DNA of 21,671 nucleotides from Comamonadaceae bacterium (GTDB taxonomy: Bacteria; Pseudomonadota; Gammaproteobacteria; Burkholderiales; Burkholderiaceae_C), in contig CANFOQ010000043.1 in assembly GCA_947448745.1 (NCBI GenBank), positions 1 to 21,671 of the forward strand. The letters run 5' to 3'. Shown here piece after piece: positions 615-17,403 of this stretch; position 1 is the stretch's first letter, and the number at the start of each line of letters is the position of its first letter. A program made the position numbers and the translations under genes. The notes under the pieces are model-generated. The model was not told the origin of the DNA, made no database searches, and saw only the letters and a program-made list of their open reading frames with translations.

Positions 615-624
615 GTGGGCAACC

Positions 625-1775: not shown

Positions 1776-2752
1776 GCTTTGGCCAAGGCCACTGGAGCCT
1801 TTCGCACGCCAAACAAAATGCCAAAGGTCACCAGGGACAGACCCAGCAACAAATGCCAACCCAAAGGCTCGCCCAAAATCACCACCGCGCCCAAGGCGGA
1901 CAAGCCCGGCACCAAGGAGGTGATCATGGTCGAGCGCACGGGGCCATAGTGGCGAATCATTTGGGTGAAAGTGATGCCCGAGATGACCACCGAACCGCCG
2001 CCTTGAAACAGCGCTTGCCACAGCACTTCAGAGACGGGCGCAGTGAACAAATGGCTGGGCAGCACTTGCAGCCAAGCCAACACGGTGTACAGCGGCACAA
2101 AGCTGAAAAAGGCAAAACAGGTGATGGCGATCGTGGCGGGAATGGCTTGCAGGTTCAAGCGTCGGCTCATGACGCTGTAGGTGGACCAGCAAAAACTGGC
2201 GCACAAAAACAAAACATCACCCACCCACACAGTGCCGCCGTCAAACGCATGCAACAAACTGCTGCCGCCGACCAACATGCCGCCGCTGATGATCAGCGCC
2301 AAGCCCATCAAGCGGTTGCCATGCAAGCGTTCGCCCAACAACAGCAAGGCCAGCAAACTGGTCCAGACCGGCAAAAAACCAGGCATCAAGACCGAGCCGT
2401 GGGCGGCGGGCGCAAAGAAAAAACCGTTATAGGCCAACATGGCATAGCCCAAACCACCAAACAAACCGAGGCGCCAAGTGATGTGCCAAGGCAGCGGCGA
2501 CAGACCGCCCAAGGACCCCAAGGCTTCACCGCGTGCTTTGGCCCGTTGGCTCAACCACCAACCCCATGGCAGCAAGACCACACTCGCCCCCACCATGCGG
2601 GCCCAGGCAATGTCCAAGGGCAACAAATGCCGCGAAGCGGAGGCGCGAGCGATGACGATGAAAGCGCTCCAGATAGAAACCGTGATGACGGCAGCCAACA
2701 GGCCGACGGTTTGGGGGGGCAGTTGCCGCAGGCGAAGAATAAAAGAGCGCAT
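1772..2752 (-). CDS. DMT superfamily (EamA-like) permease
   Basis: About 326 aa counted from ATG at 2752 (MRSFILRLRQLPPQTVGLLAAVITVSIWSAF...). It has about 10 hydrophobic segments in a two-EamA-repeat layout. Its stop overlaps the tsaB start by 4 nt. Confidence 0.85.
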   Translation of the reverse strand: MRSFILRLRQLPPQTVGLLAAVITVSIWSAFIVIARASASRHLLPLDIAWARMVGASVVLLPWGWWLSQRAKARGEALGSLGGLSPLPWHITWRLGLFGGLGYAMLAYNGFFFAPAAHGSVLMPGFLPVWTSLLALLLLGERLHGNRLMGLALIISGGMLVGGSSLLHAFDGGTVWVGDVLFLCASFCWSTYSVMSRRLNLQAIPATIAITCFAFFSFVPLYTVLAWLQVLPSHLFTAPVSEVLWQALFQGGGSVVISGITFTQMIRHYGPVRSTMITSLVPGLSALGAVVILGEPLGWHLLLGLSLVTFGILFGVRKAPVALAKA

Positions 2753-2800
2753 CCCGTGATTATCTGTGGCGAGGACCAAGTGCAGTTTCATAATCGGAAC

Positions 2801-4246
2801 ATGACCATGACAACGATCAAACCAGGCCGCGTTGACCACACCATTTCACACATGCCCGCACGTCTGGTTTGCGGCGTCATGTTGATCCTGGGCTTGCTGG
2901 GCGCAGCACATGGGCAAAGCAGCTTGCCGCCCGCCGTGGAAGACGCGTTGCAACGCGCCAAATTGCCACGCGACGCACTGAGTGTGGTGGTGTTGCCCGT
3001 GGGCGCACCCGGCACCCCCCGTTTGCAGCACATGGCCGAGGTGGCCCGCAATCCAGCGTCCCTCATGAAGCTGGTCACCACCAGCGCGGCGCTGGACCTG
3101 CTGGGCCCGGCCTTCACGTGGCGCACGCCGGTGTATTTGGACGGGCAGCTGCGTGGCGATGTGTGGCACGGGCAGGTGTACTTGCAAGGCAGTGGCGACC
3201 CGAAGTTGGGCGTGGAGCAACTTTGGTTGTTGCTGCGTCGCTTGCAAGGCATGGGCATTCGCAAAATTCAGGGTGACATGGTGTTGGACCGCAGTTTGTT
3301 TTCATTGCCGCCGCACGACCCCGCCAGCTTTGATGGCGAACCCCTGCGTTCTTACAACGCCGCACCAGATGCGCTGCTGCTGAACTTCAAATCCTTGCTG
3401 ATTCAATTCGTGCCCGACCCAGCGCACAAAGTGGCGCGGGTGCATCTGGAGCCGCCCCTCGCCGGGGTGCAGGTGCAAAGCAGCGTGCCCTTGATGGGTG
3501 GCGACTGCGCCGATTACCGCGCCAGTTTGAAGCCGGAGTTTGGCCATCCTTTGAACATCCGCTTCTTGGGTGGTTTTCCTGCCAGTTGCAACGACAAACT
3601 CTGGCCCGTGGCGTATGCCGACCCCGAGCAGTTTGCAGCGCGAGCGGTGCTGGGCATGTGGCAACAACTTGGCGGGCAACTCAGTGGCAGCGTGAGAGAG
3701 GGCCCTGTGCCCACGGCCTTGAAACCTGTTTTTGTTGCAGAGTCAGCCACGCTGGGCGAAGTGGTGCGCGACATCAACAAGTTCAGCAACAACGTCATGG
3801 CCGAGCAATTGTTTTTGACGCTGGCCGCACAACAACGTGGTCAAGCCACACCGGCCTTGGCCAAAGAAGTGGTGGACGCATGGTGGCGTGAACGCGTCGG
3901 CGGTGAGCCGCCCTTGATGGACAAAGGGTCGGGCTTGAGCCGAGCCTCGCGCATCAGCGCCCAAGCCTTGGCGCATTTGCTGCAGTGGGATTGGTCGCAG
4001 GCTTTCATGCCTGAGTTGATCGCGTCACTGCCACTCACCGGCGTGGACGGCACCATGAAGCGCAGCAAAAGCAGCGCCCATGCGCATTTGAAAACCGGCA
4101 GCTTGCGCGACGCCATGGGCATTGCGGGTTATGTAGATGGCCAAAACGGCCAGCGCTTTGTGCTGGTCGCCATGTTGAATCATCCGAACGCGAACCAAGC
4201 CCGACCGGTGATGGACGCCTTGATTGATTGGACGGCCGGGCGCTGA
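2801..4246 (+). CDS. dacB: D-alanyl-D-alanine carboxypeptidase/endopeptidase (PBP4, DacB family)
   Basis: This is the real part of the 860-aa ORF 1664..4246. It has a signal-like N-terminus (MPARLVCGVMLILGLLGAAHG). The PBP4 motifs are NPASLMKLVTTSAALDLLG (SxxK), FSNNVMAEQL (SxN) and HLKTGSL (KTG). Start is ambiguous: ATG at 2801, 2807 or 2852. Confidence 0.9.
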   Translation: MTMTTIKPGRVDHTISHMPARLVCGVMLILGLLGAAHGQSSLPPAVEDALQRAKLPRDALSVVVLPVGAPGTPRLQHMAEVARNPASLMKLVTTSAALDLLGPAFTWRTPVYLDGQLRGDVWHGQVYLQGSGDPKLGVEQLWLLLRRLQGMGIRKIQGDMVLDRSLFSLPPHDPASFDGEPLRSYNAAPDALLLNFKSLLIQFVPDPAHKVARVHLEPPLAGVQVQSSVPLMGGDCADYRASLKPEFGHPLNIRFLGGFPASCNDKLWPVAYADPEQFAARAVLGMWQQLGGQLSGSVREGPVPTALKPVFVAESATLGEVVRDINKFSNNVMAEQLFLTLAAQQRGQATPALAKEVVDAWWRERVGGEPPLMDKGSGLSRASRISAQALAHLLQWDWSQAFMPELIASLPLTGVDGTMKRSKSSAHAHLKTGSLRDAMGIAGYVDGQNGQRFVLVAMLNHPNANQARPVMDALIDWTAGR

Positions 4247-4457
4247 TCAAATGTCATCCCAGCGTCAATAGAGTGCAACATAATGCATTCATCGCCGATT
4301 CCTCAGCAGAAATTAGGGTATTGGAGGGCGAAAAAGATGAAAAACCCTGCATGAACTAGGTATTTACACGGTTGTTCAAGCGAGCAGAAATTTCAAGAAT
4401 GCGAGGGTTCGAAGTTTGAATACGGTTTTTCATACCGCTTTTAGAAGGAGTTGTCAG
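4247..4457 (+). promoter_or_regulatory. AT-rich upstream/leader region of the monooxygenase operon (candidate promoter, repeated TTCAAG-like hexamers, strong SD)
   Basis: This region is visibly the most AT-rich stretch of the window. A candidate sigma70 -35 TTTACA (4363-4368) is followed by a weak -10 AGAAAT after 17 nt. TTCAAG occurs at 4375 and 4392, TTCGAA at 4408 and TTGAAT at 4416, a period of roughly 16-17 bp for the first three. SD AGAAGGAG (4443-4450) lies 7 nt before ATG 4458. The promoter assignment is tentative. Confidence 0.35.
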
Positions 4458-5237
4458 ATGTCCACCTTGACCAGTCGTGATCTCAATATGTCCAGTTCGC
4501 AGGACACCACGTCCCGCTTCACCCTCAGCTATGTTTGGTTTGCTGTCGCCATGACGGTGCTGACCGGTGTTTACGTGTCCTACCGCGTCTACCAACAGAT
4601 GTACGGCATGTCGGCAGGTTTGGATTCCACCGAACCCATCTTCCAAGACATCTGGATGCGTTTGTTTTGGATTCAATTGCCCGTGCTGTTTGGCATCGTG
4701 GCCCTGATTCAGGTGTATCTGTTTGTCACCCGGGACCGCAACATTGACGCTATCACGCCCGAGGTTGAACTCAAGCGCTATTTCGCCCTGACCATGTGGT
4801 TGGTGGTCTACACCTTCACCTTCTACTGGATTGGCAGCTTTTTTGGTGAAGGCGACGGCAACTGGCACCAAACCGTGTTGCGTGATACACCCATCACGCC
4901 CAGCCATGTGGTGCTGTTTTACGCTTGCATTCCGCTGTACTTGATGTTCGGTATCGGCAGCTTCGTCTATGCCATGACCCGCATCCCCGCTTTCTGCAAA
5001 GGCATCTCCTTGATGCACGTGTTTGCAGTCGTTGGCCCTTTCTTGATCCTGCCCAACCTGGGCTACAACGAATGGGGTCATGCCTACTGGTTGACCGAAG
5101 AAATCTTCTCTCATCCATTGCACTGGGGCTTTGTGGTGCTGGGCTGGAACGCCTTGTCACTGGCGGGCGTCTTGATGCAAATCATTTCACGATTCCGTGA
5201 CCTGATGCCCATCGTTTTCAAGAACGAAACCGCCTGA
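4458..5237 (+). CDS. xmoC: Copper membrane monooxygenase subunit C (PmoC/AmoC/XmoC family)
   Basis: 259 aa from ATG 4458, preceded by a strong SD; the track ORF starts at an upstream TTG at 4416. Family hallmarks are SFFGEGDGNWHQTVLRDTPITPSHVV, YAMTRIP.F and LPNLGYNEWGHAYWLTEEIFSHPLHWGFVVLGW. Both Asp/His/His and Asn/His/His metal-ligand triads are present. Confidence 0.93.
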   Translation: MSTLTSRDLNMSSSQDTTSRFTLSYVWFAVAMTVLTGVYVSYRVYQQMYGMSAGLDSTEPIFQDIWMRLFWIQLPVLFGIVALIQVYLFVTRDRNIDAITPEVELKRYFALTMWLVVYTFTFYWIGSFFGEGDGNWHQTVLRDTPITPSHVVLFYACIPLYLMFGIGSFVYAMTRIPAFCKGISLMHVFAVVGPFLILPNLGYNEWGHAYWLTEEIFSHPLHWGFVVLGWNALSLAGVLMQIISRFRDLMPIVFKNETA

Positions 5238-5263
5238 ACGGCCTTTCCCACTAGGAACTCATC

Positions 5264-6115
5264 ATGAACACAGAAACACTGCAACACCCTCAGGGTGCTG
5301 CGGCAGGACAAGTGCACGCCAAAGATACTGTCATCAGCGTGTCGGGACTGTCGCCCAAGGCTCTTCATTTCTCCCGCGTCTTCGAACTCTTTGTGGTGGC
5401 CGCCATCATCATGCTGTTTGCCGGCGCCATCCACTTGCATGTGTTGCTGTTGGCTGGCGACTGGGACATGTTCTTGGATTGGAAAGACCGTCAATACTGG
5501 CCGTTGTTGTCGCCTGTGGTGATGATCATGTTCCCAGCGGCTTTGCAGGGCATTTTCTGGACCTACTTCCGCTTGCCCATTGGTGCGACCGTGGGTGCCA
5601 CCTGTTTGATGTTGGCCGTGTCGATTTCGCGTCCCGCGTCATTCATGTGGTGGACCGATTACCCCTTGAACCTGGTGTTGCCCGCGCAAATGATTGCCAG
5701 TGCGATTGTGTTGGACGTGTTTTTGCTGGTGTTTCGCAATGCCTTGTTCACCGCCATTTTTGGCGGCTTTGCGTTTGCGTTTTTGTTCTACCCTTCCAAC
5801 TACGCCATCTTTGCGCCGTTTTATGTGCCAGTCAGCCACCAAGGCATGATGGCCTCTATGGCCGACTTGATTGGCTATGTGTATCCCCGCTCGGCCACGC
5901 CCGAGTACATCCGCATCATTGAGCGCGGGACCTTGCGCACCTTTGGCGACTCGGCCAGTTGGGTCTCGGCGTTGTTTGGGGGCTTTATTTGCATCTTCAT
6001 GCACTATGCCTGGTGGTATTTGGGCATTGCCATGTCCTCCATGAAGTTCCTGCCCAACAACGCCAAAGTCATGGCCTTGATGGGAACCAAAGCGGATGTC
6101 AAAGCAAGTGCTTGA
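5264..6115 (+). CDS. xmoA: Copper membrane monooxygenase subunit A (PmoA/AmoA/XmoA family)
   Basis: 283 aa. Hallmark motifs are LLAGDWDMFLDWKDRQYWP, ATPEYIRIIERGTLRTFG and WWYLG, plus multiple TM segments. It lies 26 nt downstream of xmoC, in canonical C-A-B order. Confidence 0.95.
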   Translation: MNTETLQHPQGAAAGQVHAKDTVISVSGLSPKALHFSRVFELFVVAAIIMLFAGAIHLHVLLLAGDWDMFLDWKDRQYWPLLSPVVMIMFPAALQGIFWTYFRLPIGATVGATCLMLAVSISRPASFMWWTDYPLNLVLPAQMIASAIVLDVFLLVFRNALFTAIFGGFAFAFLFYPSNYAIFAPFYVPVSHQGMMASMADLIGYVYPRSATPEYIRIIERGTLRTFGDSASWVSALFGGFICIFMHYAWWYLGIAMSSMKFLPNNAKVMALMGTKADVKASA

Positions 6116-6140
6116 GCGCCAACCTTCAAGGGGAAAAATT

Positions 6141-7400
6141 GTGCTGTTGATTCAAAAAACAATGAAGTTGTTCGCGCTTTGGCTGGGCTTGGTGCTGGTG
6201 ACCGGTGTCGCCACCGAGTCGGCCTGGGCCCATGGTGAGCGTTCACAAGAACCGTACCTGCGTACTCGCACGGTGCAGTACTACGACGTGCATTACGACA
6301 AGCAAACGGTCAAAGTGAATGAAGAGTTCACCTTGATTGGCAAATTTCGTTTGATGGAAGACTGGCCCGATGCGGTCAGCTTGCCCGAGACCGTGTTCTT
6401 GGCGGCCTATGCACCAGGCCCCATGATCACCCGCGTGGAAAGCTACTTGAATGGCGTGCCTGCGCGTCAATCCTTCTCCAAACTGGAGTTGGGTCGAGAC
6501 TATGAATTCAAGTTGGTCATGAAAGGCCGCGTGCCTGGGCGTCACCACATTCATCCCTTGTTGTCTGTCAAGGGCTCCGGCCCCTTGGTCGGCCCAGGTC
6601 AATGGATTGAAGTCACGGGCAGCAAGGCCGACTTTGTGCACAAAGTCACCACCATGAATGGTGTTGAGATTGACAACATCGAGTTCTACGGCATCTCACG
6701 TGCATTGAAATGGTATGGCGTTTGGATTGCGTTGGCTGCCTTCTGGTTGCTGTTCTGGTTGGTGCGTCCTTTGTTGCTACCACGTTGGATCGCCTTGAAC
6801 AAAGGCCGCGAAGACGTGCTCATCTCCAACCGCGATGTCACCGTGGGTGTGATCTTGGGGGTCGTGGTCGTGGCCATCTCATTTGGCGGCTACATCTATG
6901 CCAACAAAGAGTACCCCTATGTCGTGCCCTTGCAAGCCGGCACCAACAAAGTGGACCCCTTGCCCAAGCCCATGCATTCGGTGGAGGTGACGGTGACGAA
7001 AGCCACGTATGACGTGCCAGGACGCTCCATGAACATCACGGCACGCATGACCAACCGGGGTGCCGAACCCGTGTCCATCCTCGAGTTCGCCACCGCCAAC
7101 CTGCGCTTTGTCAATCAGCAAGCGCCTGGCGCCGACAAAGCGGTGTCGGCGGACTACCCCCGCGACTTGGTGGCCCGTGCAGGTTTGGGCATGTCGGATC
7201 AAAAACCCTTGATGCCTGGGGAAACCCGCGAGATCAAACTCGAAGCCAGCGATGCCTTGTGGGAAGTCGAGCGCTTGGTGAGTTTCTTGACCGATGTGGA
7301 CTCCAAGTTTGGTGGACTGCTGTTCTTTGTCGACAAGTCGGGCAACCGCTTGATGACCGAAATTGGCGGCCCCATCCTGCCCACCTTCACGGCTTTGTGA
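6141..7400 (+). CDS. xmoB: Copper membrane monooxygenase subunit B (PmoB/AmoB/XmoB family)
   Basis: The signal peptide ends ...ATESAWA|HGERSQEPYLRTRTVQYYD, the same N-terminal His context as PmoB. GRHHIHPLLSVKGSGPLVGPGQWIEVTG carries the HxH. There are two central TM helices and a C-terminal cupredoxin-like domain. Start is either GTG 6141 (SD AAGGGGA 6 nt upstream) or ATG 6162; ATG 6096 would overlap xmoA. Confidence 0.92.
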   Translation: MLLIQKTMKLFALWLGLVLVTGVATESAWAHGERSQEPYLRTRTVQYYDVHYDKQTVKVNEEFTLIGKFRLMEDWPDAVSLPETVFLAAYAPGPMITRVESYLNGVPARQSFSKLELGRDYEFKLVMKGRVPGRHHIHPLLSVKGSGPLVGPGQWIEVTGSKADFVHKVTTMNGVEIDNIEFYGISRALKWYGVWIALAAFWLLFWLVRPLLLPRWIALNKGREDVLISNRDVTVGVILGVVVVAISFGGYIYANKEYPYVVPLQAGTNKVDPLPKPMHSVEVTVTKATYDVPGRSMNITARMTNRGAEPVSILEFATANLRFVNQQAPGADKAVSADYPRDLVARAGLGMSDQKPLMPGETREIKLEASDALWEVERLVSFLTDVDSKFGGLLFFVDKSGNRLMTEIGGPILPTFTAL

Positions 7401-7401
7401 G

Positions 7402-7965
7402 ATGCGCATGAAACGTGTTGTGATGAGTTGGTGCCTGTTGCTCGGTGCAACAGGTGCTTGGGCGCATGGTGGTTTGTCCATGGAACAAGACATGTGCAAA
7501 CTCACCGTTGGGCCCTACATGATGCACTTCGCGGGTTACCAAGAAGACGCACAGCGCACCGAGTTTTGTGAAGACATTCCGCACAAAGGGCCGACCATCA
7601 TCGTGCTGGATGTGGTGGATTTGGCTTTGCGTGACTTGCCCATCGAGTTTCGCATTGTGCGCAAAACAGATGGTCCTTTGGATGCTGCGCCCGAGGTCTA
7701 CAAACTCGCACCTGCGGTTTATCCCAAAGGCACTTTGATGATTCGCCACGACTTCATGGACGACGGCGATTACGTCGGTTTGGTCTATGCCGGCGCAGAC
7801 CGCAAACACAGTTCGGTGTTTCCGTTTTCAGTGGGCAAACAAGGCGGCTATTGGAAATACACCTTGGGCTTGGTCGGCTTGTTGCTGTTGGCGGTGTTTG
7901 GCTTGCAAGTTGGTCGACAACGCTTGCAAAAAGACATTGCCAGGCAAGGCCAAAACGAGGCTTGA
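7402..7965 (+). CDS. xmoD: PmoD/AmoD-like periplasmic copper protein with C-terminal membrane anchor
   Basis: 187 aa from ATG 7402, 1 nt after the xmoB stop. The signal peptide is MRMKRVVMSWCLLLGATGAWA|HGG. The motif C32-X7-M40-X-H42 (CKLTVGPYMMH) matches the C-X7-M-X-H signature I recall for PmoD. The C-terminal TM helix is YTLGLVGLLLLAVFGLQVG. Its position after CAB matches xmoCABD/amoCAB-orf4/5 layouts. Confidence 0.7.
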   Translation: MRMKRVVMSWCLLLGATGAWAHGGLSMEQDMCKLTVGPYMMHFAGYQEDAQRTEFCEDIPHKGPTIIVLDVVDLALRDLPIEFRIVRKTDGPLDAAPEVYKLAPAVYPKGTLMIRHDFMDDGDYVGLVYAGADRKHSSVFPFSVGKQGGYWKYTLGLVGLLLLAVFGLQVGRQRLQKDIARQGQNEA

Positions 7966-7968
7966 GAC

Positions 7969-8340
7969 TTGACCGCAATCCGTTTGTTTGCATGGCTGGC
8001 GCTGGCCTGGGGCTTCATGCCCTGGTCTGCGCTGGCCCATGCGCATTTGCGCGGCAGTGAGCCGCCAGCGAACGCGGTGATTGCACAAGCGCCGCAACAA
8101 ATCCGCTTGAAATTCTCCGAGCCGGTTGAGAAACACTTTTCGCGCATTGACATCCAAACCGATAAAGAAGTCATCGTGTTGCCCGCCAACAGTTTGCAAT
8201 GGGATGCGGCTGGCAAGTCCTTGCAAATTGAGGTGCCACCCCATGCAACGGCGACAAGTTATCAAGTGGAATGGTCCATCTTGGCCAAAGATGGGCACCC
8301 TGGCAAAGGGCGGCTGAACTTCAAGGTCAAACCCCAATAA
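7969..8340 (+). CDS. copC: Periplasmic copper-binding protein CopC (Cu(II)-site-only type)
   Basis: 123 aa with a TTG start 3 nt after the xmoD stop. The signal peptide ends ...WSALA|HAHLRGSEP. The CopC signature is YQVEWSILAKDGHPGKGRLNFKV (D-x-H). There is no Met-rich Cu(I) loop. Confidence 0.88.
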   Translation: MTAIRLFAWLALAWGFMPWSALAHAHLRGSEPPANAVIAQAPQQIRLKFSEPVEKHFSRIDIQTDKEVIVLPANSLQWDAAGKSLQIEVPPHATATSYQVEWSILAKDGHPGKGRLNFKVKPQ

Positions 8341-8341
8341 C

Positions 8342-10234
8342 GTGGACGCCTCCGTTGCCCTGCGCGGTTTGCAAACAGCCCTGCTGGCGTGTGCATTCGG
8401 CTTGGCTTTTTTACTGCGCTTGGCCCACATATTCAGCGATGATTTAAAAGCGCAAGCATTGCGTTGGCTCAAGTGGGTCACTGCACTCGTGTTGCTTTTG
8501 CAAGCAATGCGTTTGGGCGACATGGCTTGGTCCTTGCAAGCCTTGTTGGCCCCTGGCGCATCGGTGTTCAGTGTGTTTCAAACCTATGGTGGCCAGGTGT
8601 TGCTTGGCCAAGCGGTGGTGCTGTTGTTGGCCGCTGCGGGTGTCTGGTTGTGGCGATGGCGCAGCTTGCAAATCACGGCGGTGCTGCTGTTGTTCATGGC
8701 GATGGTGGCCATGGGCCTGAGTGGTCATGTGGTGTCGGCATCCGAAGAAACCGTGCTGAGTTTGGCCGCCATCATGCATGTGCTGTTGGCGCAGTTGTGG
8801 GTGGCGGGCGTGTTGGCTTTGCTGTTTCTGGCCAAACACGGCGGGCCCGATTGGACTCAAAGATTGGCGGTGTTTTCCAAATGGGCTTTGCCCGGCATGG
8901 TGTTGCTGCTGCTGAGTGGCGTGTACCTTGGCCGATGGAGTGTCGGCAGTTGGCCAGGTTTGTTGGCCACCAACTATGGTGCTTTGCTGGTCTTGAAACT
9001 TGTCTTTGTGGTGGGTGCATTGTGGTGTGCTTGGCAACTGCGACGCGGCCTCGCTGTCCAACCCCAAGACCCGGCGCAACAGCAATCGTGGTTGAGCAGC
9101 GAAGCGGGCTTGGCCTTGACCGTGTTGGCAGCGGCCAGTGTGTTGGCGTCGACCGTGCCCGCCTCACACGACACCATCGTGTGGCCGTTGTCGTTTCGCT
9201 TAGCGCCGGTGTTGGCTTGGCGTCAAGACGCCCAGCACACCGTGCAAATGCTGGTCATCAGTTTGGCCTTGTGTGTGGCGGGCTTGGCCTTGTGGATGCG
9301 TTGGCGCCAGCAACATCGTGCTCGCGCCAAAAGCGTGTTGGCCGCTTGTGTGATCGCAAGTTTGTCGCTGGCATTGCCCGCCATCAGCATCACCGCCTAC
9401 CCCACCACCTACATGCATTCATCAGCGCGATTGGATGCGCCCTCCGTCATGGCGGGGCAGGCCTTGTATGAACAGCATTGCGTGCAATGTCATGGCGTGC
9501 ATGGGCACGGCGATGGACCGGTGGCGCAGCTGAACAAATTGCAACCAGCCAACTTGACCGAGCCGCATGTCAGTTGGCACACGCATGGCGACATGTACTG
9601 GTGGCTCAGCCATGGCAAGGGCCAGATGCCGGGCTTTGCGGATGTGTTGTCAGAAGAAGAGCGCTGGCACCTGATCAATTGGTTGATTGCCCTTTCATTG
9701 GGCTATGAAGCGCGTTCGATCACGCCAACCCCTGCAGCTTTCAACCCTTGGTTGCCCAGCATCGATTTCCGTTTTCAAATGGACAACAACAACTTCATGT
9801 CCTTGTCCGAGTGGCGCGGTTTGCATCCGGTGCACCTGATCATCGTCAACCAGCGTGAAGAACTGCAACGGGTGCGTGATTTGTTGAAGGACATGAAAGG
9901 CTTCCCCGCACAATTGGTCATCGTCAGCCGTCCTGAATGGTTGAAGGACTTGGTGAAAGGGCCGTGTGAAGCGGTGCTGGTGGGCGACGCAAATGGCGAC
10001 ATTGCCCGCGCGTGGGCCCATTACCGACGAAGCTTTGCAACCCCCGATTTGTTGAACGAAGAAACCCAGGTGGCACGCATGGAATTTTTGATCGACCGTT
10101 TTGGTTTTGTGCGGGCCCGTTGGCGCTCCGATGAAACACCCAACGCCTTGTCTTTGAATGCATTGAAATCGATTTACGACAGCTTGGCCCCTGAGGGCGA
10201 AATCAAATCAGCGGCGATCCATCAACATGACTGA
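8342..10234 (+). CDS. copD: CopD-family copper transport membrane protein fused to a class-I cytochrome c domain and a C-terminal thioredoxin-fold (peroxiredoxin/TlpA-like, no CxxC) domain
   Basis: 630 aa with a GTG start 1 nt after the copC stop. About 10 hydrophobic helices span residues 1-355. The heme motif CVQCH sits at 9479-9493, with the distal Met in GKGQMPGF. Residues from about 465 to 630 have a redoxin-like strand pattern (HLIIVNQ..., LVIVSRPE, LVGDANGDIARAW, FLIDRFGFVRARW). Confidence 0.85.
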   Translation: MDASVALRGLQTALLACAFGLAFLLRLAHIFSDDLKAQALRWLKWVTALVLLLQAMRLGDMAWSLQALLAPGASVFSVFQTYGGQVLLGQAVVLLLAAAGVWLWRWRSLQITAVLLLFMAMVAMGLSGHVVSASEETVLSLAAIMHVLLAQLWVAGVLALLFLAKHGGPDWTQRLAVFSKWALPGMVLLLLSGVYLGRWSVGSWPGLLATNYGALLVLKLVFVVGALWCAWQLRRGLAVQPQDPAQQQSWLSSEAGLALTVLAAASVLASTVPASHDTIVWPLSFRLAPVLAWRQDAQHTVQMLVISLALCVAGLALWMRWRQQHRARAKSVLAACVIASLSLALPAISITAYPTTYMHSSARLDAPSVMAGQALYEQHCVQCHGVHGHGDGPVAQLNKLQPANLTEPHVSWHTHGDMYWWLSHGKGQMPGFADVLSEEERWHLINWLIALSLGYEARSITPTPAAFNPWLPSIDFRFQMDNNNFMSLSEWRGLHPVHLIIVNQREELQRVRDLLKDMKGFPAQLVIVSRPEWLKDLVKGPCEAVLVGDANGDIARAWAHYRRSFATPDLLNEETQVARMEFLIDRFGFVRARWRSDETPNALSLNALKSIYDSLAPEGEIKSAAIHQHD

Positions 10235-11081
10235 ACAGACCCTTCAGGAAAAAACCCGTACATGGCACAAAGCCCAATGGCTCATCGGCGCTTTGGCGTT
10301 GATGGGTTTTTTGTACATGGTGGGCAAGAGTTGGATCAAGCCGCCCTTGCCGCAAGCGGCGGCATCGGTGAAAGCCACGACAGGCACTTGTGCACAAGCC
10401 TTGAGTGGTCAAGCGGGCCGCAGTGCTGAATTGAAAACCCCGAACGGCTTGCGCTACAGCGTGGTCGCGCCCAGCAACTACCAAGCGGACAAGCAACATG
10501 GCTTGTTGATGATGTACCCGCCCGCGGGCTTCAATCACGAGATGGCTGAGCACTATTACCAACTGACGACCCAAGCCAACAGCCAAGGCTATGTGGTGGT
10601 TTACAGCGCGTCCATTCCGTTGTCAGCACGTGCCTTGCGCTTGCAAAACGAAGTGGTGCCGCAGGTCTTGGCCAGCTGGTGCATTGACCCCCATCGCATT
10701 GTGTATGCAGGGCATTCTGATGGCGGCACCCTCAGCACAGGGCTCACGGTTCGGGCGCAAGCGCAAGACCCCGCGCCTCACACTATCGTTGCCAGCGCAG
10801 CGGGCATCACCCAAGAAGATTTGCAGCAAGAGCAGTGTCCCGCGCCTTTGAATGTGACGGTGTTGCACAACCCGAAAGACGATTTGTTTCCGGGCTTTGG
10901 TGAGGGCGCAGTGAAGTGGTGGGGTCAATGCATGCAGTGTGCAGAGCCCGTGCAAACCGAGGCAACCGGTTGCACGGTTCGGCAATGCACCCAGGGCAAG
11001 GTGTTGCGCCATTGCGTGACGCCAGAGCCACATGTGAAGTTTCCGGCGGTGGCTTCGCACATGTTGGAGTGGCTTGACTGA
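10227..11081 (+). CDS. Membrane-anchored alpha/beta-hydrolase, PHB-depolymerase/LpqC-like esterase family
   Basis: 284 aa. Its start overlaps the copD stop by 8 nt. The N-terminal TM anchor is WLIGALALMGFLYMVG and the nucleophile elbow is GHSDGG. The Cys-rich C-terminus (WWGQCMQCAEP...GCTVRQCTQGKVLRHC...PH.KFP) resembles the tail of COG3509-type esterases. Confidence 0.7.
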   Translation: MTEQTLQEKTRTWHKAQWLIGALALMGFLYMVGKSWIKPPLPQAAASVKATTGTCAQALSGQAGRSAELKTPNGLRYSVVAPSNYQADKQHGLLMMYPPAGFNHEMAEHYYQLTTQANSQGYVVVYSASIPLSARALRLQNEVVPQVLASWCIDPHRIVYAGHSDGGTLSTGLTVRAQAQDPAPHTIVASAAGITQEDLQQEQCPAPLNVTVLHNPKDDLFPGFGEGAVKWWGQCMQCAEPVQTEATGCTVRQCTQGKVLRHCVTPEPHVKFPAVASHMLEWLD

Positions 11082-11106
11082 GTAACTGGAATCTGACCCC
11101 AATTGT

Positions 11107-12102
11107 TCAAGCCGCTGCCCGCTGCAACCTGTCCCGCACCCCATCCCAAGCCTCACCATCAGGCGGGGTTTCTACCCAAATCTCATGAACACCTTCGGCA
11201 TCCATGGCTCGCAACTGTGCAAACAACTCATGGGCGCACTGCGCCGCATCTGATGGCATCTTCACCCATCGAACACCCGCAGGCACATCCAACACAGCGC
11301 GGGTCCACAACGCCACCTGCACATCCATGCCAGACAAGCGCGACAACATGTCTTCTGAAGTCAACAAACGCACACGCGCACGCGGTGCATAGTGCGATGC
11401 CAAGGTGCCGGGCGCTGCCGGTGCTTGTTCAATCAAAGCATCAGCAGAAGGTGCTGACGTGTTTTCAAGAAGCGGCGAATGCAACACAGGCACACCAGCA
11501 GCCTCCGACAGTTGCGACAAACTCAGCATGCCCGGGCGCAACAACACCGGCGCACCTCGGCTGCAATCGATGATGGTGGACTCGATGCCGACATCACACG
11601 CGCCGCCGTCCAACACCAAGAGCGATGGAAACGCTTCGCGCACATGCGCTGCGGTGGTGGGGCTGACGCTGCCAAACAGATTCGCACTGGGGGCGGCCAC
11701 ACCTTGCACGCCCAAGCGTTGCGCGACTTGCAACACAGCCAAAGCCACAGGGTGCGATGGACAACGCAAGGCCACGGTGGCGTGACCACCTGCAGCGGCA
11801 TCGGCCACACCCACTTGTTTGGGCAAGATCAGCGTTAACGGGCCGGGCCAAAACGCCGCCATCAAGCGCTGTGCAAACGCGGGCACTTTCTGCGCAAACA
11901 AAGCCACTTGCGCCGCATCGGCCACATGGACGATGAGCGGGTGGTTCGCGGGCCGGCCTTTGGCATGAAAAACAGCATCCACAGCTTGCGGGTTCAAAGC
12001 ATCAGCGGCCAAGCCATAGACCGTTTCGGTGGGCAAGCCGATCAAACCACCTTGTGACAACACGTGGGCGGCTTGCAGCACCGCCTCGGATGAGACGTTC
12101 AC
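11107..12102 (-). CDS. tsaC: L-threonylcarbamoyladenylate synthase (Sua5/YwlC-type TsaC with C-terminal Sua5 domain)
   Basis: The ORF 11107..12267 was trimmed to GTG at 12102, which overlaps the purK stop (GTGA). Motifs are GGLIGLPTETVYGLAADA, HAKGRPANHPLIVHV, WPGPLTLIL and APSANLFG. Confidence 0.9.
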   Translation of the reverse strand: MNVSSEAVLQAAHVLSQGGLIGLPTETVYGLAADALNPQAVDAVFHAKGRPANHPLIVHVADAAQVALFAQKVPAFAQRLMAAFWPGPLTLILPKQVGVADAAAGGHATVALRCPSHPVALAVLQVAQRLGVQGVAAPSANLFGSVSPTTAAHVREAFPSLLVLDGGACDVGIESTIIDCSRGAPVLLRPGMLSLSQLSEAAGVPVLHSPLLENTSAPSADALIEQAPAAPGTLASHYAPRARVRLLTSEDMLSRLSGMDVQVALWTRAVLDVPAGVRWVKMPSDAAQCAHELFAQLRAMDAEGVHEIWVETPPDGEAWDGVRDRLQRAAA

Positions 12103-13286
12103 CACGCAGCGATACCCAAGATGGCGGCGGCTTGCAAGGCCACTTGTTTGGCCGCTTCGGGCGTGGCGGCCGTGATGGTGAGGTGGCCCATCTTGCGACC
12201 AGTGCGTGCTTGTGTTTTGCCATACAAATGCAAATGCACGCCAGGCAAGGCCAACACTTGCGGCCAAGGCGGCTCCATGGCTTCATCGCCTTGTGCAAAC
12301 CACAAATCGCCCAACAGGTTCAGCATGACGCTGGCGCTGTGCAAGCGCGGCTGCACCAATGGCAAGCCAGCCATGCAACGCACTTGCAATTCAAACTGCG
12401 ACACATCGCAACTGTCGATGCTGTGGTGCCCGCTGTTGTGTGGGCGCGGTGCAATCTCGTTCACCACGAGGGGGCCCAAAGCATCACGTTCGGGGCCGTC
12501 GTGCAGCAAGAAAAATTCGACGCACAACACACCCACATAGTTCAAGCCGCGTGCCACGTCACAGGCTGCTTGCACAGCTTGGTGTTCGGTGGCGGCGGGC
12601 AAGGCGTGTGCAAACACCTCGGTCACTGCCAAGATGCCGTCACGGTGCAGATTCACTTGCACCGGCAAGTGCACCATCTGACCATCAAAGCCCCGCGCCA
12701 ACACCACCGAGCACTCGGCGGCCAAGGGCAGGCGTTTTTCCAAAATACACACGGTGGGACCAGCGCCTTGGAGTTGTTGCCAAGCAGCGGGCAAGTCAGC
12801 AAGCGACGCCACCCGCACCTGGCCTTTGCCGTCATAACCCAAGCGTGTGGTTTTCAAGATCCCTGGAAATAAATCAGGGGACACCGAAACCAAGCCAGCT
12901 TCACTGTGCAACACCGCATGCGGCGCCACCGGCACACCGCAAGCCACAAAATGCGCTTTTTCTTTCGCGCGGTCTTGGGCCACGGCCACGGGGTCTGCGC
13001 CAGGGGCGCAAGGCAAGCTCAAACCCAATTGGTGCAAAGCTTCGGCGGGCACGTTTTCAAATTCGGTGGTGATGGCGTGGCATTGCGCGGCCATCTGCTG
13101 CAAGGCCGCAGGGTCGAGGTAATCGGCCGCCACATGAACATGACTGACCAAACCAGCCGGGCTGTGTGCATCGGGGTCAAGGACGGCGGTGCGGTAGCCC
13201 AAGGCTTGTGCAGCGTGGCTCCACATGCGACCCAATTGACCGCCCCCCAGCACGCCCAAGGTGGCGCCTGGCAACAAGGTTTTCAA
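12099..13286 (-). CDS. purK: 5-(carboxyamino)imidazole ribonucleotide synthase PurK
   Basis: 395 aa. ATP-grasp features include LGVLGGGQLGRMW and TEFENVP. The start overlaps the purE stop by 4 nt. Confidence 0.95.
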   Translation of the reverse strand: MKTLLPGATLGVLGGGQLGRMWSHAAQALGYRTAVLDPDAHSPAGLVSHVHVAADYLDPAALQQMAAQCHAITTEFENVPAEALHQLGLSLPCAPGADPVAVAQDRAKEKAHFVACGVPVAPHAVLHSEAGLVSVSPDLFPGILKTTRLGYDGKGQVRVASLADLPAAWQQLQGAGPTVCILEKRLPLAAECSVVLARGFDGQMVHLPVQVNLHRDGILAVTEVFAHALPAATEHQAVQAACDVARGLNYVGVLCVEFFLLHDGPERDALGPLVVNEIAPRPHNSGHHSIDSCDVSQFELQVRCMAGLPLVQPRLHSASVMLNLLGDLWFAQGDEAMEPPWPQVLALPGVHLHLYGKTQARTGRKMGHLTITAATPEAAKQVALQAAAILGIAAW

Positions 13287-13777
13287 AGGGCGGGCGGCAC
13301 GGTCATGGCACGTGCGGCGTCTGTTTGTTGTTGGCGAAACGCTTGTAGCGCTTGGTGGAGTTTGGGGTGGTCGTGCGCCAACAGGGCCACGGCAAACAAG
13401 GCCGCGTTGGCTGCACCTGCTGCACCAATGGCGAAGGTGGCCACTGGAATGCCTTTGGGCATTTGCACGATGCTGTGCAGCGAATCCACGCCTAGCAAAT
13501 GCTTGCTGGCCACCGGCACACCCAACACCGGCACCGTGGTTTTGGCGGCCAACATGCCTGGCAAATGCGCCGCCCCACCCGCACCCGCAATGATGGCTCT
13601 GAGGCCGCGGCCGTGCGCGGCTTCGGCATAGGCAAACATGTCGTCGGGCATGCGGTGCGCGGACACCACCTGGGCCTCAAAGCCGATGCCGAAATCTTGC
13701 AAGATCTGGGTGGCGTGTTGCATGGTGTCCCAGTCGGAGCTGGAGCCCATGACCACACCGACAAGAATGGGGTTCAT
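13283..13777 (-). CDS. purE: 5-(carboxyamino)imidazole ribonucleotide mutase PurE
   Basis: 164 aa. Motifs are VGVVMGSSSDWDTM, VVSAHRMPD and IIAGAGGAAHLPGM. Confidence 0.95.
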   Translation of the reverse strand: MNPILVGVVMGSSSDWDTMQHATQILQDFGIGFEAQVVSAHRMPDDMFAYAEAAHGRGLRAIIAGAGGAAHLPGMLAAKTTVPVLGVPVASKHLLGVDSLHSIVQMPKGIPVATFAIGAAGAANAALFAVALLAHDHPKLHQALQAFRQQQTDAARAMTVPPAL

Positions 13778-13887
13778 GATGAAGGGGCAGTGAACTGCGG
13801 GTAAGCTTATGCGTTAACAGAAAGCCTAAGGCCCATTCGGGCTTTGGCGTGTTGGTGAACTGATTTTATTCCCCTGGACCTGACCCC

Positions 13888-14844: not shown

Positions 14845-14859
14845 GTCAAAGTATGGGGA

Positions 14860-15264: not shown

Positions 15265-15291
15265 TCACCCACTCACCAAGAAAGGGCGCGC

Positions 15292-16614: not shown

Positions 16615-16654
16615 GGGGCTGTTTTCAAAAAACGGGGTTGGGGAAAAAGGGGAT

Positions 16655-17331: not shown

Positions 17332-17363
17332 GCGGCTCTTCCTGATCAAAGAGGAGGAGATTT

Positions 17364-17384: not shown

Positions 17385-17403
17385 TCTCACACAATCTTGG
17401 TGA

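What the first reader, a model, noticed from the sequence alone, without database searches (positions are those of the whole stretch)
4247..11106. Compact xmoCABD-copC-copD(cyt c)-esterase operon: a copper membrane monooxygenase in a non-nitrifier, non-methanotroph betaproteobacterial context
Seen in the sequence:
- Seven plus-strand genes span 4458-11081, with gaps of 26, about 25 (or 46), 1, 3 and 1 nt, then an 8-nt overlap. They therefore form one translationally coupled unit.
- The first three products carry unmistakable PmoC/AmoC, PmoA/AmoA and PmoB/AmoB motifs.
- Both flanks are core genes (dacB on the left; sua5-purK-purE on the right).
- There is no integrase, IS element, tRNA or obvious direct repeat at either boundary.
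- Codon style (TTG/CAA-rich, by eye) matches the flanks.

Established knowledge: CuMMOs are best known from methanotrophs and ammonia oxidisers, and from a few actinobacterial and gammaproteobacterial alkane/alkene oxidisers. As I recall, divergent xmoCABD clusters were reported from Rhodoferax/Polaromonas single-cell genomes and linked to C2-C4 alkane oxidation (Rochman et al., ISME J 2020).

Inference: this enzyme is probably not a bona fide methane or ammonia monooxygenase. XmoA looks far from beta-AOB AmoA by eye, and no hao/cycAB or mxaF/xoxF genes lie in the window. Its substrate and physiological role are open.
Basis: partly seen in the sequence, partly recalled or inferred. Interest (0 to 1): 0.9.

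Follow-up and report, generated by a model that had tools for sequence, protein, structure and literature searches.

The report
Uncharacterised copper monooxygenase island in Limnohabitans
A common freshwater plankton bacterium (Limnohabitans-like) carries an intact 6.9-kb gene island for a copper membrane monooxygenase that is neither a typical ammonia nor a typical methane enzyme; the genes were already noticed in this genus, but what the enzyme oxidises is still unknown.

Summary
Window 4247-11106 holds seven co-directional, tightly packed genes: xmoC, xmoA, xmoB, a PmoD homologue, copC, a CopD-cytochrome c fusion and a periplasmic serine esterase.

All CuB, CuC and CuD copper ligands are conserved. 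All seven genes are under purifying selection.

XmoA is only 40-44% identical to structurally solved AmoA and PmoA. It lies outside the AmoA/PmoA/Pxm group, in a Burkholderiales/Bradyrhizobium clade of unknown function.

It is not new. amo/pmo-like genes in Limnohabitans were reported in 2012 (read as ammonia oxidation) and in 2023-24 (GROWdb, read as a divergent pMMO). Related betaproteobacterial xmoCABD were linked to ethane/propane use in 2020.

Sister clades link the module to MimR-type regulators, acyl-CoA genes or a GMC oxidoreductase/glyoxalase set. My best guess, at moderate confidence, is therefore oxidation of small organic volatiles.

The haem c and thioredoxin-fold extension of CopD and the co-inherited esterase are the least described parts.

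Verdict: real, ordinary in kind, function open.

The parts
4247..11106 (+). Whole accessory island of 6,860 nt, lying between the stop codons of the convergent genes dacB and sua5.
   Evidence: In the related contig L089, sua5 and dacB are separated by only 4 nt (CACT). Homology to the window stops at 4246 and resumes at 11109. In L001, L003 and L026 only about 4330-11081 is shared with the window.
4273..4286 (.). Conserved TGCA-N6-TGCA box (TGCAACATAATGCA). Candidate operator, about 185 nt upstream of xmoC.
   Evidence: Invariant columns in the alignment of six upstream regions. Present at -178 to -194 in 9 of 9 loci of this clade and in none of 61 other xmo loci. Its function is inferred.
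4337..4374 (+). Conserved upstream block ATGAAAAACCCTGCATGAACTAGGTATTTACACGGTTG. Probable promoter or activator region. RBS AAGGAG lies at 4445-4450.
   Evidence: Conserved across species even where the flanking genes differ. The consensus sigma-70 scan found nothing, so the promoter type is unresolved.
4458..5237 (+). xmoC, the CuMMO C subunit (259 aa).
   Evidence: Pfam AmoC 295 bits. NCBIfam AmoC_BACT 344.6 bits against a cut-off of 319. CuC ligands D/H/H and CuD ligands N/H/H are conserved. The specificity site reads RDT-P-ITPSH.
5264..6115 (+). xmoA, the CuMMO A subunit (283 aa).
   Evidence: Pfam AMO 268 bits. AmoA_BACT 284.1 bits, below the cut-off of 290. 40-44% identity to solved AmoA and PmoA. 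The exact sequence occurs in MAG GCA_947449995.1 and in several metagenomes.
6141..7400 (+). xmoB, the CuMMO B subunit (419 aa from GTG 6141). Signal peptide, then mature N-terminus HGERSQEP.
   Evidence: Monooxygenase_B 460 bits; AmoB_BACT 526.6 bits. The CuB ligands are conserved: the N-terminal His and the H-x-H in GRHHIHP.
7402..7965 (+). xmoD, a PmoD/AmoE-type cupredoxin (187 aa) with a signal peptide and a C-terminal TM helix.
   Evidence: PDB 6CPD (PmoD) at E=1.4e-18. The motif C32-x7-M40-x-H42-x14-C57 fits the Cx7MxHxnC CuA-forming class defined in PMC6189053. TM helix at residues 153-171.
7969..8340 (+). copC, a periplasmic copper-binding protein (123 aa).
   Evidence: Pfam CopC at E=1.6e-19. 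dN/dS about 0.18 against relatives.
8342..10234 (+). Three-part fusion (630 aa): CopD membrane domain of about 10 TM helices, a class I cytochrome c (CVQCH at residue 380, nt 9479-9493), and a cysteine-less thioredoxin-fold domain (nt 9677-10231) ending in H-x-H.
   Evidence: Pfam CopD, Cytochrome_CBB3 and Cytochrom_C. PDB cytochrome c552 at E=3.5e-15. TM scan. C-terminal model pLDDT 68.7; Foldseek hits peroxiredoxin, AhpE and ResA at E about 1e-8. Invariant FLxDRxGxVRARWRxDE and HxH.
10227..11081 (+). Membrane-anchored periplasmic serine esterase (284 aa) of the CE1/PHB-depolymerase-like alpha/beta-hydrolase type.
   Evidence: Invariant GHSDGG (S164), D218, H269 and seven Cys in 30 homologues. 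AlphaFold pLDDT 92.6. Foldseek hits: feruloyl esterase 8jh8 at E=4.7e-12, PHB depolymerases, acetyl-xylan esterases. N-terminal TM helix at 19-37. Co-located with xmo in 35 loci.

Best explanation
Shown: the region is a chromosomal 6.86-kb accessory island in a Limnohabitans-like freshwater Comamonadaceae. It encodes a complete, selectively maintained copper membrane monooxygenase (XmoCAB) of a lineage outside AMO, pMMO and Pxm.

Inferred from characterised homologues:
- XmoCAB assembles in the inner membrane. O2 activation and substrate hydroxylation happen at the copper sites of XmoC (CuC/CuD), with CuB in XmoB.
- XmoD, a CuA-forming PmoD type, supports the enzyme.
- CopC and the CopD domain acquire and deliver copper.
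- The periplasmic haem c and thioredoxin-fold domains fused to CopD probably do copper redox handling, or pass electrons.

Inferred from gene context in sister clades: the physiological substrate is most likely a small organic volatile, either a C2-C4 alkane/alkene or a short ketone such as acetone. It would be oxidised to feed heterotrophic metabolism, rather than ammonia or methane being oxidised as an energy source.

Open: the co-inherited periplasmic esterase acts on an unknown ester linked to this chemistry or to enzyme maintenance.
For: Identity and integrity:
- Pfam and NCBIfam hits.
- All CuB, CuC and CuD ligands conserved.
- PmoD homology with the Cx7MxHxnC motif.
- dN/dS 0.02-0.26 for all seven genes.

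Not AMO or pMMO:
- 40-44% XmoA identity to solved AmoA and PmoA.
- Separate clade in both trees.
- The XmoC specificity site is Pro. It is Asp in pMMO, Ser in AMO, Ala in HMO and Glu in PMO3 (site described in PMC8630023).

Host: PurC and Fba are 97% identical to Limnohabitans sp. proteins.

Island status: empty site in L089.

Organic-substrate hint, from relatives at about 74-75% XmoA identity:
- A divergent MimR_N/HTH_8 regulator (L077; homologues also in L005, L048 and L051).
- Acyl-CoA synthetase, thiolase, SDR and enoyl-CoA hydratase next to the module. The acyl-CoA synthetase cluster also includes weak (about 31% identity) hits beside the Mycobacterium xmo loci L069 and L070.
- A glyoxalase / Gluconate_2-dh3 / GMC oxidoreductase set. 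This resembles the Methylacidiphilum pmoCAB3 acetone cluster (PMC8630023).

Literature: related betaproteobacterial xmoCABD carriers were described as alkane-utilising (Rochman 2020; only the title was seen, in reference lists).
Against: - No catabolic gene or regulator is adjacent in the window or in its own clade. The context argument is borrowed from sister clades 25% diverged in XmoA.
- XmoB and XmoC score above NCBI's AMO equivalog cut-offs.
- GROWdb authors placed Limnohabitans sequences with methanotrophs on their tree, and Zeng et al. 2012 read them as ammonia oxidation.
- Deep nodes of my NJ trees are unresolved, with bootstraps of 6-58%.
- CuMMOs are promiscuous, so sequence cannot fix the substrate.
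- The roles of the haem domain and the esterase are pure inference.
Confidence: 0.5

Rival explanations
1. It is a divergent particulate methane monooxygenase. It would let Limnohabitans oxidise methane, as facultative or trace-level methanotrophy, in surface freshwaters.
For: [quoted passage not shown]
- All pMMO copper ligands are present.
- An in-operon PmoD of the CuA class with copCD matches the alpha-methanotroph extended pmo operon.
Against: - XmoA is 42-44% identical to gamma PmoA and lies outside the PmoA+AmoA+Pxm group.
- The specificity site is Pro, not Asp.
- TIGR03080 scores 254 bits, below its cut-off of 318.
- No methanol dehydrogenase or C1 gene lies near the module in any of about 80 loci.
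- No betaproteobacterial methanotroph is known (established knowledge).
- GROWdb itself says the substrate is unconfirmed.
Confidence: 0.15
2. It is an ammonia monooxygenase, giving Limnohabitans ammonia-oxidising capacity (lithotrophic or heterotrophic nitrification).
For: - NCBIfam AmoC_BACT (344.6 vs 319) and AmoB_BACT (526.6 vs 336) pass their equivalog cut-offs, and AmoA_BACT nearly does (284.1 vs 290).
- PGAP names 74-75% homologues 'bacterial ammonia monooxygenase'.
- The title of Zeng et al. 2012 claims ammonia-oxidiser capability for Limnohabitans Rim28 and Rim47.
- The operon layout amoCAB-(E)D-copCD is that of beta-AOB.
- The best PDB hits by score are AMO subunits A and B.
Against: - Only 40-43% identity to AmoA and AmoB, and outside their clade.
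- Pro instead of the AMO Ser at the XmoC site.
- One PmoD homologue, not the amoE+amoD pair.
- PMC3591437 notes there is no experimental confirmation.
- The same NCBI label is applied to a methanotroph plasmid gene, so the label is not diagnostic.
- The host family is heterotrophic or photoheterotrophic.
- hao/cycAB could not be checked.
Confidence: 0.1
3. The enzyme has no single dedicated growth substrate. It would be a broad co-oxidising or detoxifying periplasmic oxygenase, or a copper- or redox-stress-related module. It would be kept as a dispensable accessory island.
For: - Presence/absence polymorphism among close relatives.
- Different chromosomal contexts in L001, L003 and L026.
- No linked catabolic genes or regulator in this clade.
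- Four of the seven genes are copper- or redox-handling or a hydrolase.
- CuMMO promiscuity is noted in PMC6215863.
Against: - Very strong purifying selection on xmoCAB, with dN/dS 0.02-0.10.
- Conserved clade-specific upstream elements imply specific regulation.
- Sister clades are embedded in catabolic clusters.
Confidence: 0.15

Closest known systems
amo/pmo-like genes already reported in Limnohabitans (Zeng et al. 2012, strains Rim28 and Rim47; GROWdb Limnohabitans MAGs, Borton et al. 2023/2024)
   Same: Same genus-level host and freshwater habitat. L004, whose record title carries a WHONDRS S19S sample name and which I therefore take to be a GROWdb river MAG (not confirmed against GROWdb records), carries XmoA 96% identical to the window's, with the same left flank. 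The literature likewise says the substrate is unconfirmed.
   Different: Those reports mention only amoA/pmoA-type genes and assign ammonia or methane by annotation or tree placement. As far as I could read, they do not describe the seven-gene island, its empty site, the CopD-haem c-thioredoxin fusion or the esterase. I could not test whether Rim28 and Rim47 carry this exact lineage; no Limnohabitans isolate appeared among the 71 genome loci.
Betaproteobacterial xmoCABD lineages of Rhodoferax and Polaromonas (Rochman et al., ISME J 2020)
   Same: Comamonadaceae hosts, xmoCABD order, non-nitrifier and non-methanotroph carriers. A 2025 paper (PMC11964087) still lists them as uncharacterised.
   Different: The one Rhodoferax-labelled locus recovered (L041) is only 50% identical in XmoA, sits in another clade with Nevskia and Polycyclovorans, and has Ala rather than Pro at the XmoC specificity site.
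Extended pmo operon of alpha-methanotrophs (pmoCAB-pmoD-copC-copD-pCuAC) and the beta-AOB amoCAB-amoE-amoD-copC-copD operon
   Same: Same gene order for the first six genes. The in-operon PmoD has the Cx7MxHxnC motif. PCuAC follows the module in sister clades.
   Different: The catalytic subunits are 40-44% identical and fall outside those clades. There is one PmoD rather than two. CopD carries extra cytochrome c and thioredoxin-fold domains, and an esterase gene is appended. I did not check whether CopD of AOB or MOB has such extensions.
Bradyrhizobium sp. ERR11-type XmoCAB of unknown function (Khadka et al. 2018)
   Same: Nearest named-isolate relatives: XmoA 58-63% identical, with Pro at the XmoC site and xmoCABD-copC-copD(cyt c) order. 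They are a sister group in both trees.
   Different: Alphaproteobacterial soil hosts. The esterase gene is mostly absent.
Methylacidiphilum PMO3 acetone monooxygenase (pmoCAB3-pmoD cluster; Awala et al. 2021)
   Same: A CuMMO with a proven non-alkane, non-ammonia substrate. Its cluster holds GMC oxidoreductase and lactoylglutathione lyase, and the same kinds of genes follow the module in the L007/L008/L079 sister clade.
   Different: Verrucomicrobial and distant. It has Glu at the specificity site. No such neighbours occur in the window's own clade.

Membership tests
Copper membrane monooxygenase (CuMMO; AMO/pMMO superfamily) | Three subunits matching the AmoC, AMO (A) and Monooxygenase_B models, encoded together. 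| tested here: met
   295, 268 and 460 bits, all far above the gathering cut-offs. Order C-A-B with 26- and 25-nt gaps.
Copper membrane monooxygenase (CuMMO; AMO/pMMO superfamily) | Conserved copper ligands: CuB (N-terminal His plus HxH in B), CuC (Asp, His, His in C) and CuD (Asn, His, His in C). | tested here: met
   Alignments to solved AMO and pMMO chains, and to 75 homologues.
Copper membrane monooxygenase (CuMMO; AMO/pMMO superfamily) | Copper-dependent, acetylene-sensitive monooxygenase activity. | not testable with these tools
   Needs culture or heterologous expression.
Bacterial ammonia monooxygenase (beta-AOB / comammox type) | A subunit reaches the NCBIfam AmoA_BACT equivalog cut-off and nests within the AmoA clade. 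| tested here: not met
   284.1 bits, below 290. 40-42% identity to three solved AmoA. Separated by a 100% bootstrap split in the XmoA tree, and the Amo/Pmo/Pxm group is monophyletic at 97% in the XmoB tree. Note that AmoC_BACT and AmoB_BACT cut-offs are passed.
Bacterial ammonia monooxygenase (beta-AOB / comammox type) | Ser at the XmoC substrate-associated site (RDT-S-FTPSH). | tested here: not met
   The window has Pro (RDTPITPSH); AmoC of 9pxf has Ser.
Bacterial ammonia monooxygenase (beta-AOB / comammox type) | Genome encodes the hydroxylamine-oxidising module (hao, cycAB). | not testable with these tools
None of these genes is in the window.
Particulate methane monooxygenase | Nests within PmoA clades and reaches the TIGR03080 cut-off. 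| tested here: not met
   254 bits, below 318.15. 42-44% identity to gamma PmoA; alpha PmoA scores lower. Lies outside the clade.
Particulate methane monooxygenase | Asp at the XmoC substrate-associated site. | tested here: not met
   Pro in the window; Asp in Methylocystis PmoC. Site described in PMC8630023.
Particulate methane monooxygenase | Host has methanol dehydrogenase and C1 assimilation. | not testable with these tools
Pxm (pxmABC) | Gene order A-B-C. | tested here: not met
   The window order is C-A-B. The Methylobacter and Methylomonas loci show A-B-C.
Actinobacterial hydrocarbon/butane monooxygenase (HMO/BMO) | Ala at HmoC151, and clustering with the Mycobacterium/Rhodococcus enzymes. 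| tested here: not met
   Pro rather than Ala. Mycobacterium loci are 31-43% identical and form the outgroup.
Betaproteobacterial Xmo lineages of Rochman et al. 2020 | xmoCABD cluster in a Comamonadaceae that is not a known nitrifier or methanotroph. | tested here: met
Betaproteobacterial Xmo lineages of Rochman et al. 2020 | Sequence falls in one of their three described lineages. | not testable with these tools
   Paper and sequences not held.
PmoD/AmoD/AmoE family, CuA-forming subclass | Cupredoxin homologous to PmoD, with the Cx7MxHxnC motif, a signal peptide and a C-terminal TM helix. | tested here: met
   6CPD at E=1.4e-18. C32, M40, H42 and C57 present. TM helix at 153-171.
CopC / CopD copper-uptake pair | Matches to the CopC and CopD models in adjacent genes. 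| tested here: met
   CopC 71 bits and CopD 55.8 bits, both above cut-off. The NCBIfam equivalog cut-offs are not reached, so these are family members, not equivalogs.
Alpha/beta-hydrolase serine esterases (CE1 / PHB-depolymerase-like) | Alpha/beta-hydrolase fold with a Ser-Asp-His triad and a GxSxG elbow. | tested here: met
   pLDDT 92.6. Foldseek E=4.7e-12 to feruloyl esterase, also PHB depolymerases. Invariant S164, D218 and H269. No Pfam model reaches its cut-off. Hydrolytic activity is untested.

The most novel reading that the evidence does not exclude
The island could be a self-contained periplasmic oxidation system of a new CuMMO subclass.
- The haem c domain fused to CopD would be the enzyme's dedicated electron donor. 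That would give a genetic handle on the long-unresolved question of how CuMMOs are reduced.
- The co-inherited esterase would process an ester substrate or product.
- Cosmopolitan Limnohabitans could then consume oxygenated volatiles or trace gases, conceivably including methane, in surface freshwaters.
Probability: 0.1. Interest if true: 0.8.

Novelty: new member of a known kind. Interest (0 to 1): 0.42.

Why it matters
Limnohabitans is among the most abundant and active genera of lake and river bacterioplankton.

Its CuMMO is currently read three different ways in the literature and by annotation pipelines: ammonia, methane and short alkanes.
- Metagenomic nitrogen- and methane-cycle budgets that count these genes as amoA or pmoA are probably wrong. 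One example of such reasoning appears.
- PGAP naming of homologues as 'bacterial ammonia monooxygenase' appears.

Isolates of the genus exist, and close relatives with and without the island co-occur. The substrate question is therefore directly testable.

The fused CopD-cytochrome c and the conserved esterase are cheap leads into how these enzymes get copper and electrons.

Tried and rejected
- Rochman 2020, Zeng 2012 and Kasalicky 2018 could not be read.
- The sigma-70 consensus scan found no promoter. The terminator-like hits were at background level.
- Rfam, tRNA and repeat scans were empty.
- My first operator pattern used the wrong spacer (N7) and found nothing. It was corrected to N6.
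- The plasmid search found only actinobacterial HMO and one Methylomagnum copy at about 42%, so there is no evidence the island is plasmid-borne.
- The homologue search with the CopD C-terminal domain returned only 12 proteins, most of them short fragments, so its model is shallow at pLDDT 68.7.
- Cluster look-ups gave no organism names for more distant XmoA hits, so Rim28 and Rim47 could not be placed.
- Deep nodes of the NJ trees are unresolved. I do not claim which characterised clade is sister.
- Pseudogene or relic was rejected: dN/dS is 0.02-0.26 and the frames are intact.
- Recent foreign acquisition detectable by composition was rejected: codon usage matches the flanks.
- Epoxide-hydrolase or dehalogenase-type alpha/beta-hydrolase was rejected: the nucleophile is Ser in GHSDGG.
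- Redox-active thioredoxin or peroxiredoxin for the CopD C-terminal domain was rejected: no conserved Cys.

Full report
**Observation**

The window contains seven plus-strand genes between the stop codons of dacB (4246) and sua5 (11107, minus strand).

| Gene | Coordinates | Spacing to previous gene |
|---|---|---|
| xmoC | 4458-5237 | - |
| xmoA | 5264-6115 | 26-nt gap |
| xmoB | 6141-7400 | 25-nt gap |
| xmoD | 7402-7965 | 1-nt gap |
| copC | 7969-8340 | 3-nt gap |
| copD fusion | 8342-10234 | 1-nt gap |
| esterase | 10227-11081 | 8-nt overlap |

The best xmoB start is GTG 6141, behind the RBS AAGGGGA.

Pfam gives AmoC at 295 bits, AMO at 268, Monooxygenase_B at 460, CopC, and CopD plus cytochrome c.

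The flanks are housekeeping genes:
- Left: rimI, tsaB, an EamA transporter, dacB.
- Right: sua5, purK, purE, a thioredoxin-TPR protein, ridA, purC, fba, pyk, crp.

There is no tRNA, Rfam family or boundary repeat. GC3 and synonymous codon usage of the module match the flanks, with r=0.94 and both TTG/CAA-rich.

**What the parts are**

*Catalytic subunits.* Alignments to solved AMO and pMMO chains show every copper ligand conserved:
- CuB in XmoB: the mature N-terminal His of HGERSQEP, and the H-x-H of GRHHIHP.
- CuC in XmoC: Asp/His/His in GDGNWH...TPSH.
- CuD in XmoC: Asn/His/His in NEWGH...PLHW.

*XmoD.* Orf4 has no Pfam hit but matches the PmoD crystal structure 6CPD at E=1.4e-18. It carries C32-x7-M40-x-H42-x14-C57, the Cx7MxHxnC class shown to form a CuA site (PMC6189053). 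It also has a signal peptide and a C-terminal TM helix. Some automatic gene calls start it at Met31 and so lose the signal peptide.

*CopD fusion.* This product has three parts:
- About ten TM helices.
- A class I cytochrome c with CVQCH.
- A 185-aa C-terminal domain whose model (pLDDT 68.7) matches peroxiredoxin, AhpE and ResA thioredoxin folds at E about 1e-8. It has no conserved cysteine. It keeps an invariant FLxDRxGxVRARWRxDE motif and a terminal H-x-H.

*Esterase.* The last gene encodes a membrane-anchored periplasmic alpha/beta-hydrolase.
- The model has pLDDT 92.6.
- Best fold matches are feruloyl esterase 8jh8 (E=4.7e-12), PHB depolymerases and acetyl-xylan esterases.
- Thirty homologues share an invariant GHSDGG Ser164, Asp218, His269 and seven cysteines.
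- No Pfam model reaches its cut-off.
- The database search found only 57 homologues.

*Selection.* All seven genes are under purifying selection against five related species. dN/dS is 0.02-0.10 for xmoCAB and 0.08-0.26 for the rest.

**Where it belongs**

XmoA is 40-42% identical to three solved beta-AOB AmoA and 42-44% to gamma PmoA. XmoB is 43% identical to AmoB and 42% to PmoB.

In bootstrapped NJ trees, AmoA+PmoA+PxmA (100%) and AmoB+PmoB+PxmB (97%) form groups that exclude the window. The window sits in a 100%-supported clade with five freshwater MAGs (L001-L004, L026). That clade lies inside a Burkholderiales group. Neighbours are the L013/L014/L016 MAG group ('Green' isolate names) and Bradyrhizobium (ERR11 type). 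Deep nodes are unresolved.

The XmoC site linked to substrate preference reads RDT-X-FTPSH. X is Asp in pMMO, Ala in HMO and Glu in the acetone-oxidising PMO3 (PMC8630023), and Ser in the solved AmoC of 9pxf. In the window and its Burkholderiales/Bradyrhizobium relatives it is Pro, as in Methylobacter Pxm. The Rhodoferax-OTU1/Nevskia clade has Ala, and a third betaproteobacterial clade has Ser.

NCBIfam's 'bacterial AMO' equivalog models are passed by XmoC (344.6 vs 319) and XmoB (526.6 vs 336). XmoA just misses (284.1 vs 290). PGAP accordingly names 74-75% homologues 'bacterial ammonia monooxygenase'. It gives the same name to a methanotroph plasmid gene. The label is therefore not diagnostic.

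**Host and island status**

The window's proteins match exactly an NCBI contig of 21,672 bp. Its PurC and Fba are 97% identical to proteins NCBI names Limnohabitans sp.. Limnohabitans belongs to the Comamonadaceae, Burkholderiales.

The same DNA occurs elsewhere:
- At 99.8% identity in MAG GCA_947449995.1.
- At 100% identity in run ERR10509559.
- A 90%-identity XmoA cluster has 123 members; one member sequence (P0121) is indexed in 53 blocks of the collection. Eight contigs carrying P0121 show the synteny uvrA...dacB | island | sua5....

A close relative, L089, has right-flank genes 93-97% identical at the protein level, apart from sua5 (86%) and crp (84%). In it, sua5 and dacB are convergent with only CACT between their stops. 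Homology to the window ends at 4246 and resumes at 11109.

In L001, L003 and L026 the same block sits in three other chromosomal contexts, with no mobility genes visible. The shared block includes about 190 nt of upstream DNA.

That upstream DNA carries two conserved elements. One is a clade-specific TGCA-N6-TGCA box (window 4273-4286), present in 9 of 9 loci of this clade and 0 of 61 others. The other is a conserved block at 4337-4374.

Composition is fully ameliorated and no homologue is plasmid-borne.

**Conserved module and context**

The order xmoCABD-copC-copD(cyt c)-esterase recurs in most Burkholderiales loci, down to 47% XmoA identity. In some lineages the esterase is moved to directly after xmoD. 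The Bradyrhizobium ERR11 type mostly lacks the esterase. Nevskiaceae have only xmoCABD.

Sister clades at about 74-75% XmoA identity add informative neighbours:
- A divergent MimR_N/HTH_8 regulator (L077; homologues in L005, L048 and L051). By my own knowledge, MimR activates the mycobacterial acetone/propane monooxygenase.
- Acyl-CoA synthetase, thiolase, SDR and enoyl-CoA hydratase. Weak (about 31% identity) hits to the same acyl-CoA synthetase lie beside the Mycobacterium xmo loci L069 and L070.
- In another subclade, PCuAC followed by glyoxalase, Gluconate_2-dh3 and GMC oxidoreductase. These are the same enzyme kinds that surround pmoCAB3 in the Methylacidiphilum 2-propanol/acetone/acetol cluster.

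The window's own clade has none of these neighbours.

**Mechanism**

Shown: the window encodes an intact, conserved CuMMO with its full ligand set, a CuA-class PmoD, CopC/CopD and an esterase, all predicted to face the periplasm.

Inferred from characterised homologues: XmoCAB hydroxylates a small hydrophobic substrate with O2 at the XmoC copper site. PmoD, CopC and CopD support copper loading.

Inferred from borrowed context and phylogeny: the substrate is a small organic volatile (C2-C4 alkane or alkene, or a ketone such as acetone) that supplements heterotrophy. This fits a genus known to live on algal exudates and DOM photoproducts (PMC3591437).

I put about 0.5 on this reading, 0.15 on methane, 0.1 on ammonia and 0.15 on a non-dedicated co-oxidation or stress role.

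The functions of the haem c domain (copper reduction versus electron donation to the enzyme), the Cys-less thioredoxin-fold domain and the esterase are open.

**Comparison with the known, and novelty**

The first six genes have the architecture of the alpha-methanotroph extended pmo operon and of the beta-AOB amoCABED-copCD operon.

CuMMOs of unknown function in Bradyrhizobium ERR11 were noted in 2018. Betaproteobacterial xmoCABD in alkane users were reported in 2020 and were still called uncharacterised in 2025.

For Limnohabitans itself:
- The 2012 genome note on strains Rim28 and Rim47 claimed ammonia-oxidiser capability (title cited), with no experimental confirmation.
- GROWdb reported Limnohabitans amoA/pmoA-like genes with unconfirmed substrate and provisionally called them methanotrophs.
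- L004, 96% identical in XmoA, has a WHONDRS sample name of the kind used for GROWdb river MAGs.

So this is a further member of a known, already noticed but uncharacterised lineage. It is not a discovery of a CuMMO in an unexpected host.

In the literature I could access, I did not find the following described:
- The exact island and empty-site polymorphism.
- The clade-specific operator-like box.
- The three-part CopD fusion.
- The tight co-inheritance of a periplasmic esterase.

**Verdict**

Novelty is modest and interest moderate (0.42). The interest comes from an ecologically important genus, conflicting published function calls, a clear annotation pitfall and a readily testable question.

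Noticed in passing
window 4246/4247 and 11106/11107; L089 13710-13715: A close relative (JGI contig Ga0620986_09364) has the empty site. The sua5 and dacB stop codons are separated by 4 nt (CACT) where the window holds the 6,860-nt island.
   Followed up: yes
window 541-4246 versus 11109-21671, compared with L089 and L081: Synonymous divergence from the empty-site relative is about twice as high on the left flank (dS 0.63-1.02) as on the right flank (0.21-0.45, crp 0.63). Island-bearing L081 shows the same step at 11084 (82.5% vs 91% nt identity). This may mark a recombination boundary at the island's right edge.
   Followed up: partly
window 16655-17062 (-) and 17059-17394 (-): By synteny with L089 these two minus-strand ORFs are a vapC (PIN) / vapB toxin-antitoxin pair between purC and fba. 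The 270-aa plus-strand ORF 16591-17403, which has no Pfam hit, is a shadow ORF.
   Followed up: partly
window 14846-15708: About 860 nt has no counterpart in L089, L081 or L083. It holds a 120-aa ORF with no Pfam hit (14882-15244) and a RidA/L-PSP gene (15253-15717). This is a second small indel between the thioredoxin-TPR gene and purC.
   Followed up: no
window 4458-7400; hits P0010, P0020; plasmid hit H1: NCBIfam 'bacterial AMO' equivalog cut-offs are passed by XmoC and XmoB of this non-AOB lineage. PGAP names relatives in Burkholderiaceae and Methylibium MAGs, and a Methylomagnum plasmid gene, as ammonia monooxygenase. This is a likely source of false nitrifier calls in metagenomes.
   Followed up: partly
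window 7402-7965; L072-L074 gene calls: Automatic gene calls in the contigs identical or nearly identical to the window start xmoD at Met31 (157 aa). This removes the signal peptide. Calls in other relatives give 185 aa.
   Followed up: yes
L034 + L040 (MAG OFTM156); L032 + L043 (MAG binchicken_co21_65); L047 (TH-08apr19-40): Single MAGs of Hyphomicrobiales carry two divergent xmo paralogues. A second, distant xmo lineage (48% XmoA identity) with the full seven-gene module occurs in a MAG (TH-08apr19-40) whose isolate name has the same format as the Jr-* MAGs L001 and L003, possibly from the same freshwater survey.
   Followed up: no
window 4458-7400 versus 7969-11081, compared with L002: xmoCAB has lower synonymous divergence (dS 0.54-0.77) than dacB (1.2), copC (2.0), copD (1.2) or the esterase (1.6) in the same genome pair. 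This could reflect codon constraint from high expression, or more recent exchange of the catalytic genes.
   Followed up: no
L007, L008, L039, L079, L080 downstream of the module: A PCuAC (LpqE-like) copper chaperone gene follows the esterase in this subclade. tblastn hits at similar positions suggest the same in L009 and in several Bradyrhizobium loci. This completes the pmoD-copC-copD-pCuAC set known from alpha-methanotrophs. It is absent from the window.
   Followed up: partly
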